A stretch of DNA of 63,862 bases, the filler included, from Kipferlia bialata (Eukaryota), in NCBI GenBank assembly GCA_003568945.1. It is 7 parts of 7 records of this genome, joined end to end, with 100 filler letters (N's around TTAATTAATTAA, not from the genome) between each part and the next. Parts side by side here need not be neighbours in the genome. Positions count along the whole stretch, not along the records: positions 44,971 to 56,099 come from BDIP01001283.1; 6 more parts are not named here. The stretch is one strand, 5' to 3'. Both the position numbers and the translations under genes were made by a program. Positions 54,454-62,196 of this stretch are shown here, piece after piece. Every line of letters starts with the position of its first letter. Position 1 is the stretch's first letter. A model generated the notes under the pieces. That model worked only from the letters and a program-made list of their open reading frames with translations, was not told the origin of the DNA and searched no databases.

Positions 54454-55354
54454 ACTGTCAGGGTTGGCAGCGGCAAGGGAGCTGATATAAGGGGGTAGAG
54501 AGAGAGAGAGAGAGAGAGAGAGAACACTGTCAATGTTGGCAGCAGCAAGTGAGCTGATATAAGGGGGTAGAGAGAGATAGAGAGAGAGAGAGAGGGAGAC
54601 ACACACACTGTGTGCTTCTGGGTAGTATCAGCTATGTAAATATTACTATATGTATATATCTATACTAACCTAGGCAGTGTGAGCTGTGTGTATGCCCCCT
54701 CCTCTGCTGTTCCGTTGTCCGACAGAATATATATAGAATATACACAACTAATGCACTATATGTAAATGTAATATATACCTTGGGAGTGTCAACTGGGTGT
54801 ATGCTCCCTCCTCTGCTGTTCCGTTGTCCGACAGAGTATACAGAGTATATACAGTATAAGAGCATAACTAATGAACTTTGGATGTACATACCTAGGCAGT
54901 GTGAGCTGTGTGTATGCCCCCTCCTCTGCTGTGCCGTTGTCCGACAGAGTATACAAAGTAAATACAGTATAAGAACATAACTAATGAACTATGCATGTAC
55001 ATACCTAGGTAGGGTTAGCTGTGTGTATGCCCCCTCCTCTGCTGTACCATTGTCTGACAGAGTGACAGAGTGTGTCATGAGGTCAGTGGCCACAGTGCCA
55101 GTGGACAGAGACTCAATCTCAACCTGGGTATTAGGGTTACTATCAAGATATAATAAGAGAGAACGAGAGAGAGAGAGAGAGTGGCCACAGTGCCAGTGGA
55201 CAGAGACTCAATCTCAACCTGGGGTGAGTACAATTATTACTATATTCATATATGTAATAGAGGTATATAGACAATGTGAATGGAAGGTATATATAGTGTA
55301 TAATTGATTGAGATTGTCCCAGTGGACAGAGACTCAATCTCAACCTGAGGGTCA

Positions 55355-55392
<38 letters not shown>

Positions 55393-55970
55393 GAGCAAGA
55401 GAGACTGTAATTAGATATATGAACGCATCTCACCTCATCTGCGTCTGACAGTATATATATATACCATATATAATGTGTGTGAGAAATACTTGTCTATATA
55501 ATGAATATTATTAACCCATTAATGTATATACTGTACTATATAATGTAGATACTGTATCTCACCTCATCTGCGTCTGACAGTTCACTGACACCAGACCCAG
55601 TCACGGCAGAGCCTGATGTAAGGGGAATACTATACGCATATATACTAGATACTATATATTATTATATATTATTATATATACATTTTTATATTATTACAAT
55701 CATGTGAAGACTCCTGGTTGAAGGATGTCTCCATGTATATACATACGAGAGAGAGCTATACTAGTCTATACACATACCTGACGATTAGTACCAGTCTGAC
55801 GCTGTCTCGTCCACACTATATACATATATGTGTAAACAACTACTATTATACTAATAATCCACTGAGAGAGAGAGAGAGAGGAGGGTATATGTACCTGACG
55901 AGTAGTACCAGTCCGATGCCGTCTCGTCGACATGCACAGAGGTCAGGGCAGAGACATGGTTAGTGTACAA
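45197..55970 (-). CDS. Type-I membrane protein with von Willebrand factor type D (VWD) domain and C8-like cysteine module (5'-truncated, about 30 exons)
   Basis: [20 protein letters not shown] (GDPH at 50342-50353), [31 protein letters not shown], transmembrane segment [19 protein letters not shown], basic stop-transfer GRRRRRRK, and acidic tail ending [11 protein letters not shown] (stop 45197-45199). Confidence 0.82.
46723..46806. repeat. Intronic ~21-bp minisatellite (GAATAAAGGGTGTAGGGGAGA), about 4 copies
   Basis: Direct tandem repeat visible in the sequence. Confidence 0.8.
50372..50627. repeat. 14-bp minisatellite TTAATCTAATG(A/G)GC interleaved with acceptor echoes of the GDPH exon; spans an assembly gap
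   Basis: Repeats at about 50372-50415, 50465-50487 and 50599-50628; CTCCATGGGCCATGCCTGGA occurs three times. Confidence 0.8.
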
Positions 55971-56099
55971 CTCCTACAGTTGAGAAGAGGTTGTAACTAG
56001 ATATATATATATATATATAGAGAAAGAGAGAGAGAGAGAGTATATGCACAGAGGTCAGGGCAGAGACATGGTTGGTATAGAGCTCCTAAGGGTGAAATA

Positions 56100-56199: not shown

Positions 56200-56268
56200 G
56201 GGGCTCCCCCCCCCCAAAAACCCCCCCCCCCCCCCCCCATCTCTCTTTCTCTCTTTCCTCACCCCCAG

Positions 56269-56647
56269 CCAAGATGGGTGCACAGTGGAAGGCTCTGTGG
56301 GGCATGGACATATCTGCAGAGATTGTGGAGGTGGACAAGAGATCATACGATGCAGTCTTCAAGTGAGTGCATTGATACTGGATGTGTGTTGCCACCTTGA
56401 GTGTCCAGTTGTGTTTGATATATATATATATGTATACACCCATATTCCTCACCCCCAGGTGGATGACGGGTCTTGGCAAGGACTTCAAGCACTACGGGTA
56501 TGCGTTCTCAGGAAAGGTAAGAGGCCCATCACAAGTCAATATCAATCAGTCTGGGGTCTCTTCTTTGAGTAACTGCTTCTTCTTCTGACCCCCCAGACCC
56601 GTAAGGTAACCGCTAGAAGGTCCAAGGCGAAGGGGACAGCCCAGTAG
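56269..56647 (+). CDS. Hypothetical protein, last three exons
   Basis: In-phase exons KMGAQWKALWGMDISAEIVEVDKRSYDAVFK/WMTGLGKDFKHYGYAFSGK/TRKVTARRSKAKGTAQ* with typical TCACCCCCAG/TGACCCCCAG acceptors. Confidence 0.6.
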
Positions 56648-56990
56648 AGGCGGTATTAGCATATACTGACAGGACATGCACGCTGACTGGGTTGTGTTAC
56701 ACAACTTGTGTATGTTTTGCACGTTTGATGGAGTTCTGGGCAGCATTTGAGCATTAGGGAGTGAGGTCGTTTGTAGATATACTCCAGAGGTGCCTTTTTG
56801 AGCCATCCAATAGATATGACAGGGATTTGGTAAAGAAGTGTAATATATGCACATACGAGACTATGCAGATCTAACAAAATGCACACTAGCAAATAATTTA
56901 TGACGAAGGAAACTACACGGCACACCGAACAACAACATATGACACAACCTGTCTAACAAACCACAGTACCCCTATCCACCTCATGATACC

Positions 56991-59013
56991 TCAGTGGTTG
57001 AAGGGGGAGAAGGCATCCTGGATACCACACTGGGGGGTGAGGGGGGGGGGGGGATAGAGTGAGTGAGTGTAATACATATACATCATGCCGTAAGTATAGT
57101 ACATGTACCCTACCTGTGCGAGGGCCATGCCCTTCTGCTTGAGAGATGCATCGTTGCCGAGGTCGATCAGGGCAGTCGAGGCGTTCTCCCAGCCACCCAC
57201 ACCCAGCAGCCCCTGGTAGTCGGGACTGAGGGACACGGTCATGACAGGGCCAATACCACTCTGCCTGGAGGGGTCAGAGAGGAGACAGTATATATATATA
57301 TATATATATGTCCATTCTATACCTGTTGAGCACGACTGGGTCCACCCCCTCCTGGAACATCTTCTTGGTGTCCAGCACGTTGAGGAACCCATCGGCACCA
57401 CCAGTCACAACCATGCCTGGGGTGGGGGAGATATGTGTCTGTACATAGACACTATATACAATACTATATACCATATATATACCCACCTGGGACTGTCTTG
57501 GAGGCAGACAGGGAGAAGGGGGCGCCTGGGACCCCCTCGTACAGACTCTTGCCGTGGATCCTAGGGGTGAGGTGGGTATATAAATGCCACAGGGTTATCA
57601 CTCATATACGTATGCAGGTACCCATACCTCCTGACCCCCATCTGGGACACATTCCTCAGATCAATGGCTGCCATGACACCACTGTCAAACCCAACCACCA
57701 CAGTGTTGGCGTCAACCCAGGCGCCCTCACACAGATCCCACACAGGGTTCTCGGGGTCAGACTCTGAGGGTGAGGGTGGGAAAAGGGAGGTGAGAAAGAG
57801 AAAGAGAGTGCCTAATGAGGCCATAATTACTCTGCCACTCACTTGCTAGGGATGCCAGGCCCTTGATGGGCATGCCCCCACTCTTGGAGCGGGTGTCGTA
57901 CACCCCACACCTACAGGCCTGGGTGGCTGGGGTGAGAAAGACACAGATAGATACATTCAGTCCAGGTAAGATAATAGATACAATACTATAGATACCTCCG
58001 AGAGCCACGCCCTGTGCGTATGGGCTGAGGGCAGCCACAGACACTGCACCACGCTTGGCATCTCCCTTCATGTGCTGGGAGAAGGTGGCCTGGGGTGAGG
58101 TGTTGTATGTATAAATACAATTATGACAGTAGATGAGAGCAGTCTTTAGAGGTGACAGTGTGTACCCACCTGCTGAGTGGAGAGGTCCCACACCCTGAGG
58201 CTACCATCGGCTGAACCAGCCAGGAGGGAGTTGAGCTCCCCTGTGGTGCGGCCCTCCCAGGACAGGCAGGTCACACTCCTAAGGGGTCAGGCACAGGAGA
58301 ACGAATCTAGATACATACACCGGTATATATATATATGTATACTCAGTGTGTGTGGGGGGGGGGGAGTCGCGCGCACACATATTGCTTGAAGAAACAGTCT
58401 CAGTGTAGAGATGTACATACCTGTCTGTGTCTGCGGCTGGTGCTGCTGCCACCTGCTGGGGCTTGGCCCTTCTGCTCCTCCTGGACCTCTTCTTGGAGGC
58501 CACGGGGGCGGGGGCTGGTGCCTCCTCCTCGCCTCCGATGGTGAACATGGGCTCATTGAGGTCCAGCACATCTGCTGGGAACACTGCAATCTCGGGGGAC
58601 CAGAGGGTACCCACGGCAACAAATGGCTGCTCCTTGTTAGGGCCGTCAATGTAGGCAAGAGAGAGGGGGACAGCAGCCACATCACAGTCCTGGCGGTGCC
58701 ACACGCTTCCAGAGGCCATCTTAGTGCCATCAACATCGTGGAAAGCAGGAGACACAACATCAAAGCTCAGAGAGCTGAGTCCGAATCCGGCCTGACCAGT
58801 CACCAGCATACTATCACGGCTCTCAAGGGAAAACTGAGCCAGCTGGGGGTCGAGAGCATCCTCTGTGAAGTTCTCGTCCACTGGGGCGTCTCCCATCTCT
58901 ACATCTACCGCTCCAGGGGCGACAATAGGTGCTCCGGTCCTTCCGGCGCCTCTGGGGACCCATGCCATACTGGCAATGTAGTTTGGCTGAGGGGCGTCCA
59001 TCTCGGCTTCCAT
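56991..59013 (-). CDS. PWP1: Periodic tryptophan protein 1 (WD40 ribosome-biogenesis factor)
   Basis: YIASMAWVPRG, AVPLSLAYID..FVAVGTLWSPEIAVFPADVLD..PMFTIG, LLAGSADGSLRVWDL, VGFDSGVMAAIDLR and MVVTGGADGFLNVLD. Stop 56991-56993. Confidence 0.88.
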
Positions 59014-59204
59014 CTCTCACAGCCAGAGCACAAAACACCCTCGGCAGCTGTCCTGCTCTATATATCTTTCAGAATCCACAAAAATCTCTAGACCCTTTTG
59101 CCACTCCGAATCGACACGATCATAACTAGATATATGCTTCAGAATCAAGCTCTATTAGTAGTACTATCACCTGGTAGGCGATGTAATAGTATTGTACGAC
59201 CCAA

Positions 59205-59906
59205 TCACTCCCCAATGACCCCTCTCATGTTCCCCCTGTACCCCTCCACTGTGCACGAGGATGGGATGCGGACATCCTCCCTGATGATGAGAGAAAGAGA
59301 GAGACCACTCAAAGGAACCACAATTAGTCAAAGAGAGAGAAAGACATATGAGTAGCCTAGCCCACCTGATTGTGTCTGGGAGTGCATTGTGCAGGGCCAT
59401 GATGTCTCTGAGCACTGCCTCCATCACTCTGTTGGTGCGGTGGATGGAGTCCTTGACACGCTGGGGGTCAGGGGTGTATAAATACAAATAGTATTACTAC
59501 TCATGAATATTATCTCATGTACTCACACACACCTCCATTGTCTGCAGAGTGGCCTTGGAGTCTGCCCTCTTGGTGTCAGCGTGCATGGCCTTCACACTGG
59601 TGGTGAGTAGTGGACACTCCTCCGGGTACATACACTGCATTGATACAACATATGACACAATACCTGTTCATCACGTCCACCGTGACTGTGTGCCTCAGCT
59701 CCTGCATCTGCACCCCTATGAAGGTCTGTCTCTGGCTCAGAGAGGCAGCTGCCGTGGTGAAGTGCTCCCTGGGGGTAAGCGCAAAAATGTCAATACTATA
59801 TAAACTATATACCCACCTGACTGTGTCAGCCATGTGGTCTATGGCCTCTCTACTGACAGGGATGACACCACACCCGGCATCATCAGCATCCTCCTCGGCC
59901 TCGGCC

Positions 59907-59941
<35 letters not shown>

Positions 59942-60656
59942 GTCAGGGATAGACTCCACAAAACCAGCATCCTCCTGAGCCTCCTCCCCCTCTCCCTCGG
60001 GTGCACGCCCAGCCACCACATCATCTAGATCCACAGGCTGGGTCTCTCCCACCATACCCTGGACCAGAACAAACCCAGGGGCCTGGAGTGGGTAAAACAA
60101 TATAAACACGTAATGCGTATAGAGAGGTATCACCTCCCACATGCAATCAACATGAGTCATGACCAGTCTCCATTACCATCGGTTGCATCCACATCCACAT
60201 ATACATACAGTGTGCCAGCATACCTTGGGGTGTGCCATACTGTCGCCTGTCTCTGGGTCTATCAGGGGTGGAACCACAGTCACAGCTGCCAGTAGAGCCT
60301 GACAATGAGGGGTGAGAAGAGAGGGGTAACAGATCCAAAAGAGCAACAGGATGAGAGAGGAGGATATATGGGACGATGCGTGAGACGATACACCAATATA
60401 TGCACCTTAACCCTCTCCATGTCTGCGTTTATCTGCTGCACTGGGCCTGCAGATATCGTCATGACACCGTCATCCTCTCCCACAGGGGCCACTGTCTTAC
60501 CAGCCTTCCCCTGCTTCGCCTTCCCAGCGGGGACGCCATCACTAGACACCTGGGCTCCCTGGTATTAGGGGATAAACAGGTACGCATCATTGACCTAAAG
60601 ACACTTGAGGAGTGGGTCTTGTCTTGTTCTTTTCTTATGGTTCGTATACGTACCAT
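59205..60656 (-). CDS. BORCS5: BORC subunit 5 (myrlysin)-like protein, predicted N-myristoylated, with acidic PE-repeat insertion
   Basis: ATG / 95-nt intron / GAQVS gives MGxxxS. DDGVMTISAG..LLAAVTVVPPLI, REHFTTAAASLSQRQTFIGVQMQEL and RVKDSIHRTNRVMEAVLRDIMALHNALPD match BORCS5 DDIVVVAQG..FQPLL..QDHL..AEAVAFDQ..LNSMLPE. Stop 59205-59207. Confidence 0.72.
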
Positions 60657-60995
60657 ATGACTGGAACTCCCAAGTGCGTCCGACCTCTAGGCTGCTCAAG
60701 TCGACGACAGAGCCAGGTCGATGGATACAGCCACCTCTAGACAGGAGAGAGGAAGGACGAGTTGGCCAGTCGTAATAACCCCTTTCACATAATTGCCAAA
60801 AACGACAAAAAACCCAGGGGTCAGAACAAAAGGGTATAGGGAAAAGCTCACCACGTCCTCTACCCACCGACAGACTCCCTGAGCCTCAGTTTTCGGTCGT
60901 TCTTACCGTAGACAGCAACACAACTCTCCATTCGCCTCTCTAGACCTTTATAGGCCTTCTACAAGCGGGAGAGCGGGTCGGAGCCTCTGTGAACG

Positions 60996-62118
<1,123 letters not shown>

Positions 62119-62146
62119 TAATATACTCTGCCACGTAGTATTTACC

Positions 62147-62196
<50 letters not shown>

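What the first reader, a model, noticed from the sequence alone, without database searches (positions are those of the whole stretch)
54670..55123. Four tandem versions of [18 protein letters not shown]: no amino-acid change, diverged spacers, possible mosaic copy
Minus strand. The full exon is 55123-55005; echoes end at 54892, 54779 and 54670 with a ~112-bp period. Against the full exon, echo 1 differs in 6 codons and echo 2 in 9 (including CTA>TTG), all silent. The first two spacers are homologous to each other but carry about 5 substitutions, so this looks like a real, aged tandem array rather than random stitching. Echo 3 shares GGA with echo 2 but its remaining codons with echo 1, which hints at recombination between copies; this rests on a single site.
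Basis: partly seen in the sequence, partly recalled or inferred. Interest (0 to 1): 0.85.

Follow-up and report, generated by a model that had tools for sequence, protein, structure and literature searches.

The report
Half-exon echoes as recombination scars
Long genes of the free-living protist Kipferlia carry dozens of half-exon copies in their introns, skipped by the RNA at the one exon tested, that differ from the working exon mostly at silent positions, likely because recombination wrote working alleles from other individuals into them.

Summary
The array is real. One working exon of Kipferlia bialata KIPB_005468 (55123-55005) is followed by three intronic copies of its last 57-60 nt plus the donor site. 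All 13 changes among the four copies are silent. DNA contigs tile the array at single depth with no variant letters. The spliced RNA contig holds only the working exon. The pattern is general: 97 such echoes (5′ halves with acceptor, 3′ halves with donor) lie at 51 of 87 exons in three long genes, and none were found in four compact contigs. Pooled pN/pS is 0.09-0.10; a dead copy beside a live exon predicts about 0.5 (P≤4e-13). Mcm10 alone fits that null. The GGA site does not show mosaicism, but exon parts and spacers give conflicting distances, which does. Best reading (0.5): short tandem duplications, tolerated by first-donor/last-acceptor splicing, whose exon parts were likely overwritten by exchange with very divergent alleles. 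No second isolate was found to test this. Junction-spanning repeats are known (human F7), and the scan noted echoes in sea urchin, where the main case fitted the null. My 10 literature searches found no account of this silent excess.

The parts
55005..55123 (-). Working exon of KIPB_005468 (VEIESL...QLTLP)
   Evidence: the only copy in the spliced RNA contig, depth 199
54952..55004 (-). Spacer 1: live donor and intron start, 53 nt
54892..54951 (-). 3' echo 1 (exon end plus unused donor), 6 silent and 0 replacement codons
   Evidence: in one DNA contig with the exon (54903-55114)
54839..54891 (-). Spacer 2, 5 of 53 letters differ from spacer 1
54779..54838 (-). 3' echo 2, 9 silent and 0 replacement codons
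54730..54778 (-). Spacer 3, 49 nt, strongly diverged
54670..54727 (-). 3' echo 3, 6 silent and 0 replacement codons; 1 letter from echo 1
55180..55218 (-). 5' echo of the same exon (unused acceptor plus 39 nt, identical to the exon), ending in a CT repeat
55316..55344 (-). Second 5' echo of the same exon (29 nt, 1 silent difference before trimming)
54317..54393 (-). Next working exon; the RNA joins here and skips its two 5' echoes (acceptors at 54553 and 54481)
55563..55612 (-). Previous working exon; the RNA uses its first donor (3' echo at 55452-55434)
45198..55612 (-). Host gene (KIPB_005468 plus 8 further exons that I predicted): surface protein with a C-terminal hydrophobic stretch; 40 echoes at 18 of 31 exons
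   Evidence: spliced length to the stop 2088 nt against 2182 nt of RNA contig
35212..44772 (+). KIPB_005466: 35 echoes at 19 of 30 exons, pN/pS 0.054
12074..21729 (-). KIPB_005460 (Mcm10 by the database name and Pfam hit): 22 echoes at 14 of 26 exons, pN/pS 0.33, fits the plain null

Best explanation
The echoes are intronic tandem copies of half an exon with one splice site, skipped in the RNA at the exon tested, and their exon parts are likely working alleles of other individuals, written in by unequal crossing-over or gene conversion in a very diverse, recombining population. Step 1 (birth, inferred): a duplication of about 90 nt forms with one end in the exon and one in the next intron, often beside a TA or CT repeat. 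Step 2 (tolerance, shown at one exon): splicing uses the first donor and the last acceptor, so the copy is harmless; other geometries would break the gene and be purged (inferred). Step 3 (overwriting, inferred): exons are the only well-conserved homology between haplotypes. Misaligned pairing of an echo with the homologue's working exon would swap in exon-limited tracts, either into the echo or into the live exon. Differences are then allele differences (about 22% of silent sites) plus a little later decay (about 2% of replacement sites). Fornicates lack Rad51A and NHEJ and have only Dmc1-type recombinases; human and yeast Dmc1 tolerate mismatches, so this would favour such exchange (inferred).
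For: 97 echoes: 146 silent and 40 replacement codons, pS 0.218, pN 0.019. Unique variants: 122 of 162 silent, against 62-77 expected, P≤4e-13. Simulating the null through my detection steps gives a silent share of 0.36-0.41 and pN/pS 0.46-0.56. With 11 more decayed echoes added: 162 of 216 silent, ratio 0.10. Codon states found only in echoes: 44 silent, 25 replacement. The intron parts of the same units differ at 25-27% of aligned sites plus gaps, about ten times pN. pN does not rise with pS (rho -0.12; age-driven models give 0.15-0.35, P≤0.016). Replacement differences lean towards AT in the echo (23:11) and silent ones do not (43:58; P 0.017), which suggests two processes. A Ser codon switches TCA/AGT in three echoes of the exon at 38397. 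Exon parts and spacers give conflicting distances in this array. The one informative site pair in arrays of four or more copies is four-gamete incompatible. 42 of 97 junction flanks carry a dinucleotide repeat, against 27% background. Fornicates lack NHEJ and Rad51A (PMC8516963, section 8); K. bialata has Spo11 and Dmc1 models (supplement rows).
Against: No second allele or isolate was seen. The DNA run shows no variants over 756 nt, the protein clusters have one member and two metagenome scans were empty, so the key step is untested. It needs silent diversity near 0.2-0.26, at the top of values I recall for eukaryotes, and I found no report of sex in this species (listing only). Mcm10 echoes fit the plain null (10 silent of 22, P 0.44). 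K. bialata keeps Msh2, Msh3, XPF and ERCC1, which oppose such exchange. Spacers 1 and 2 are only 9% apart, so the tract here must be limited to the exon. Silent and spacer distances are not correlated across echoes (rho 0.12-0.14, not significant). The detection cut-off can flatten the pN-pS relation, and my trimming at repeats inflates the junction-repeat count. Only three genes were analysed.
Confidence: 0.5

Rival explanations
1. Selection at one remove. Arrays expand and collapse often; a collapse puts an echo into the working position, so lineages whose echoes carry harmful changes are weeded out. No allele import is needed.
For: It explains the silent excess and the mosaics. A rough model reaches pN/pS 0.07-0.13 at Ne*mu 0.15-0.2. 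The copy nearest the exon is the more similar one in 12 arrays against 6, of 27.
Against: It also needs a huge Ne*mu and, by inference, recombination. It predicts that pN rises with pS, which is not seen. It predicts the strongest constraint in an essential gene, yet Mcm10 shows the least (P 0.001).
Confidence: 0.17
2. Serial fossils. Each echo is a frozen earlier state of this lineage's own exon, and the live exon changes at silent sites about ten times faster than dead exon-like DNA, for example through error-prone cDNA conversion or mutation bias.
For: In this array the differences are nested (echo 2 contains the sites of echo 1). Sites where all echoes agree against the exon are 12 silent and 0 replacement. 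Mcm10 fits the equal-rate version.
Against: The equal-rate version is rejected. Dead DNA is not slow: spacers differ at 25% or more. cDNA should convert echoes as well, and conversion within one lineage gives pN/pS of 0.5-1 (my derivation).
Confidence: 0.13
3. Echoes are translated at low level, through rare non-canonical joining of a half-exon to the live exon or through somatic collapse, so ordinary purifying selection acts on them.
For: This is the simplest reason for conserved amino acids. Echo splice sites score about as well as live ones (equal or higher in 52 of 97), although the search was anchored on GT/AG.
Against: The spliced RNA contig (depth 199) holds only the live exon. The one minor piece over the echoes (depth 2.5) runs through the donor unspliced. 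Using an echo site keeps the frame open in only 9 of 97 cases. Some echoes carry frameshifts (2 of 11 extra) or a stop (1 of 97). Contigs drop rare forms, so absence is not shown.
Confidence: 0.08
4. Echoes were copied from diverged paralogues elsewhere in the genome.
For: The host protein has four K. bialata paralogues.
Against: They are only 32-35% identical in protein, while the echoes keep about 98% of replacement sites. Exon queries of all three genes found only the gene itself.
Confidence: 0.04
5. Assembly artefact: alleles or strains in the culture were laid end to end.
For: The short-read assembly is fragmented, and no contig spans the whole array. A few arrays sit beside scaffold gaps.
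Against: Every intron-to-mid-exon junction lies inside contigs at the same depth as the flanks, with no other letters; one 212-nt contig holds exon, spacer and echo 1; an unspliced RNA piece crosses spacer and echo. A true allele would not lack its 5' half.
Confidence: 0.03

Closest known systems
Minisatellites spanning an exon-intron boundary: human F7 IVS7 37-bp VNTR, CBS IVS13, 6-16, LMNB2, PDGF (PMC1557585; 12 of 30 passages seen)
   Same: The unit holds the exon end, the donor and the intron start; later donors are intact but the first is used.
   Different: Those are single loci with near-identical units; the F7 unit holds only 4 exon bases. Here there are 1-4 copies at 59% of exons in three genes, on both acceptor and donor sides, with 15-59 coding nt that differ at 22% of silent sites and 2% of replacement sites.
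Tandem exon duplication with mutually exclusive splicing (PMC8373072, PMC9013439; search listing only)
   Same: Adjacent homologous coding copies under apparent purifying selection.
   Different: Echoes have only one splice site, cover a median 39% of the exon and are absent from the spliced contig tested.
Intron gain by tandem genomic duplication (PMC4974935, PMC3443670; search listing only)
   Same: A short tandem duplication inside a gene is removed by the spliceosome.
   Different: No new intron forms; an existing intron grows by about 88 nt per echo.
Silent-cassette gene conversion (VSG pseudogenes, Borrelia vls, Neisseria pilS; recalled, from no call)
   Same: Unexpressed partial copies that keep the coding frame and can exchange with the expressed copy.
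   Different: Cassettes serve protein diversity in one family. Echoes lie in unrelated genes, including Mcm10, and their differences are mostly silent.

Membership tests
Junction-spanning minisatellite (F7 type) | Tandem unit contains exon end, donor and intron start | tested here: met
   (period 109-113, 3.6 copies)
Junction-spanning minisatellite (F7 type) | Most upstream donor used, later donors silent | tested here: met
   one exon, one RNA run kept as contigs
Junction-spanning minisatellite (F7 type) | Copies decay neutrally or stay near-identical | tested here: not met
   pN/pS 0.09-0.10 against 0.46-0.56 simulated; met for Mcm10 alone
Junction-spanning minisatellite (F7 type) | Copy number varies among individuals | not testable with these tools
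   Only one sample holds the stretch; metagenome scans empty
Mutually exclusive tandem exons | Each copy has its own acceptor and donor | tested here: not met
   3' echoes lack an acceptor and 5' echoes lack a donor
Mutually exclusive tandem exons | Copies appear in spliced mRNA | tested here: not met
   Only the live exon is in the spliced contig; rare forms cannot be excluded
Intron gain by tandem duplication | A new intron is created inside coding sequence | tested here: not met
   Echoes lie within existing introns
Silent conversion cassettes | Copies donate sequence to the expressed locus | tested here: inconclusive
   Mosaic signals show no direction; no variants in the DNA run
Silent conversion cassettes | Copies encode diverse protein variants | tested here: not met
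   75% of unique differences are silent
Assembly artefact from serialised haplotypes | Copies at reduced depth, junctions absent from reads, or variant letters present | tested here: not met
   (possibly the same reads as the assembly)

The most novel reading that the evidence does not exclude
A single Kipferlia clone stores, in the introns of its long genes, a library of working alleles from other individuals. Each half-exon echo is a scar of mismatch-tolerant, Dmc1-only recombination between haplotypes that differ at about a quarter of silent sites. One genome would then prove sex, measure population diversity and map recombination in a fornicate.
Probability: 0.4. Interest if true: 0.88.

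Novelty: new variant of a known kind. Interest (0 to 1): 0.72.

Why it matters
Dead intronic DNA that keeps an amino-acid sequence while silent sites and neighbouring spacers diverge ten times more cannot be ordinary decay. Some process links these copies to working sequence. If it is allele exchange, the echoes make an open question testable from one genome: whether free-living metamonads, relatives of Giardia, recombine, and how a lineage without Rad51A and NHEJ repairs breaks between diverged templates. They also offer many natural tests of splice-site choice: by this reading the site nearest the exon wins over equally strong rivals on both sides, despite short introns (shown at one exon and its neighbours). 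In practice they mislead gene prediction; one echo appears to be annotated as an exon of KIPB_005466.

Tried and rejected
Only one stretch could be laid against sequencing runs (54600-55355); RNA use of all other echoes is untested. No run on record as RNA was listed; X2 is a guess, but its contig is spliced. Metagenome scans with KIPB_005468 and Mcm10 found no relative. Pfam found nothing for KIPB_005468 or KIPB_005466, and only a weak VWD hit below a full stretch in paralogue P0003. The idea that replacement differences are conservative was rejected: mean BLOSUM62 -0.26 against -0.50 random, P 0.17. Replacement changes do not cluster near the junction (P 0.30). Loss of tail-trimming or mismatch-repair genes is not the cause: XPF, ERCC1, Msh2 and Msh3 are listed for K. 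bialata. The GGA site was rejected as proof of mosaicism. The codon table was off frame and is replaced; the Fisher test used 13 silent sites and is replaced. One search crashed and was rerun. Rows dropped before counting: one annotated exon of KIPB_005466 (43203, itself an echo); six doubtful mapped pieces of Mcm10, two of them replaced by single exons; the first and last annotated exon of KIPB_005468 (the first dropped, the last shortened), with 8 exons from my own prediction. Echo ends were trimmed to the last run of 5 matches and before dinucleotide repeats. Ten literature searches listed no paper on these echoes. In the genome paper PMC5874029 'duplicat', 'heteroz' and 'polymorph' occur 0 times in the main text; its supplements were not read, and subscription papers are not searched.

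Full report
Setting. The window is a chain of seven contig pieces separated by N spacers. The exon at 55123-55005 matches NCBI KIPB_005468 of Kipferlia bialata at 100%, on an 11,129-nt contig that equals window 44971-56099. K. bialata is a free-living, intron-rich fornicate assembled from Illumina reads with SPAdes (PMC5874029, 12 of 16 passages seen). I mapped the protein to 24 exons and extended the gene to a stop at 45198. The spliced length from this exon to the stop is 2088 nt, against 2182 nt in the RNA contig; this fits a 94-nt tail and leaves little room for included echoes (inference). The protein ends in a hydrophobic stretch and a basic run. Its four relatives are K. bialata paralogues at 32-35% identity, one named VWFD-domain protein.

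The observation. Three copies of the exon's last 57-60 nt plus GT follow at periods of 113, 113 and 109. They differ from the exon in 6, 9 and 6 codons, all silent. The four copies need at least 13 changes, 12 at third positions and one silent first-position change. The copies have no acceptor. The same exon has two mirror copies upstream, each an acceptor plus the exon start.

Real and intronic. In DNA run X1, 15 of 16 laid contigs are 99% or more alike. Unique pieces have depth 401-454, the 43-nt piece shared by echoes 1 and 3 has 985, and no other letters appear. One 212-nt contig holds exon, spacer 1 and echo 1. No piece spans the whole array; the order follows from using each single-depth piece once (inference). 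X1 may be the source of the assembly, so this is a second assembly and not a second sample. In X2 a 6467-nt contig at depth 199 covers only the working exon, and its loose ends are the exons at 54393 and 55563. The first donor and the last acceptor are therefore used, skipping three donor copies, two acceptor copies of this exon and two of the next. A minor piece at depth 2.5 crosses echo 1 unspliced.

A general pattern. Using database proteins for two more genes (KIPB_005466 and KIPB_005460, Mcm10) and the curation listed under Tried and rejected, I found 97 echoes, 47 of the 5′ and 50 of the 3′ kind, at 51 of 87 exons. The median echo is 29 nt, 39% of its exon, and each adds about 88 nt to the intron. 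A search without gene models found none in the other four contig pieces, which hold 48 intron-like donor-acceptor pairs and compact genes such as eIF2-alpha (S1 domain). Echo-rich contigs have 32-45 TATA words per kb; the others have 2-10.

More silent than decay allows. An earlier scan note on a sea urchin gene (e1-9861148) explained a silent bias by protection of the live exon alone, so I tested that null. Mismatches by codon position are 29/25/150 in 935 codons; pS is 0.218 and pN 0.019. Of 162 unique codon variants 122 are silent, against 62-77 expected for transition biases of 1-10 (P≤4e-13). Running the null through my detection and trimming gives a silent share of 0.36-0.41. A gapped search found 11 further, more decayed echoes (16 silent, 14 replacement, 2 frameshifts, 1 in-frame gap); pooled, 162 of 216 are silent and pN/pS is 0.10. 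By gene the ratio is 0.054, 0.079 and, for Mcm10, 0.33; Mcm10 fits the null.

What the units say about history. The intron parts next to echoes differ from the live intron at 25-27% of aligned sites plus gaps, often close to unrelated introns (median 0.44 with gaps). Equally dead exon-derived replacement sites differ at 2%. Replacement distance does not grow with silent distance: the 16 most silent-diverged echoes have 76 silent and 3 replacement differences (simulations). Replacement differences lean to AT in the echo, as intronic decay should, and silent ones do not. They are not more conservative than random. I read the 2% as decay since the echo was last written, and the 22% as divergence that arose while both versions were functional.

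Mosaicism. However, echoes 1 and 3 are nearly identical while their spacers are far apart, and the exon and echo 1 are far apart while their spacers are close. Exon parts and spacers thus have different histories. The single informative site pair among larger arrays (exon at 48747) is incompatible; one pair is thin evidence.

Mechanism. Birth by short tandem duplication near simple repeats is inferred from the junction flanks (42 of 97, background 27%, inflated by my trimming). Tolerance by splice-site choice is shown at one exon and resembles the first-donor rule of the human F7 repeat (PMC1557585, passages). Conversion between echo and exon within one lineage would erase silent and replacement differences alike (ratio 0.5-1, my derivation). 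The remaining routes are exchange with working alleles on other haplotypes, selection through occasional collapse, rate asymmetry, or rare translation. The first best fits the flat pN, the exon-limited mosaics and the weak signal in Mcm10. All examined fornicates lack NHEJ and Rad51A and keep Dmc1 paralogues (PMC8516963, section 8); K. bialata has Spo11 and four Dmc1 models, but also Msh2, Msh3, XPF and ERCC1 (supplement file 6 rows). Dmc1 tolerates mismatches better than Rad51 (PMC8682777, abstract). That link is a lead and was not tested. The clone shows no second allele here, so donors would have to come from past sex. Both leading models need very high diversity. PMC6679479 (all 4 passages on this species) notes a reduced spliceosome and does not mention echoes in those passages.

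Verdict. The structure belongs to a known kind, the junction-spanning repeat. Its density, its two-sided form and a silent excess far beyond the live-versus-dead null did not turn up in my ten searches. The allele-exchange step is inferred from one genome and three genes, one of which does not show the excess. Interest 0.72.

Noticed in passing
window 43203-43238 (+): The NCBI model KIPB_005466 includes what appears to be a 5' echo as an exon, giving a doubled PYAKRGVIM motif in the annotated protein; no RNA check.
   Followed up: partly
window 55344-55301 (-): Beyond its matching part, this 5' echo reads G-T-I-S-I-N in frame where the exon reads G-T-V-A-T-D, like a much older working version; 46846-46813 is similar (AVIGCI against VIIACL).
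   Followed up: partly
window 38560-38822 (+): Three echoes share AGT where the live exon has TCA (both Ser, all three letters differ).
   Followed up: partly
window 11250-22395 (-): The Mcm10 gene carries 22 echoes, including four 5' copies before the exon at 18530; one echo (15769) has an in-frame stop. The database model seems to have mis-called pieces.
   Followed up: yes
window 48129-48119 and 47744-45198 (-): The annotated KIPB_005468 ends early by reading into an intron; the frame continues for 8 more exons to a hydrophobic stretch and an acidic tail, and the RNA contig runs 4164 nt upstream of the tested exon, beyond the contig end.
   Followed up: partly
contigs 1-11149, 22496-33638, 56200-62196: GC-richer contigs with compact genes (eIF2-alpha at 6528-8110; by recalled motifs a WD40 protein at 59016-56992 and a casein-kinase-like gene near 61000-62100) have introns but no echoes.
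   Followed up: partly
window 1914-3572 (+) and 23706-26525 (-): Long open frames of 552 and 939 aa without Pfam hits; the first has a P-loop-like GTPGTGKS motif.
   Followed up: no
window 50372-50629 and 18659-18716: Echo arrays flank scaffold gaps, so copy number there is uncertain; a 14-nt intronic repeat accompanies the first.
   Followed up: no
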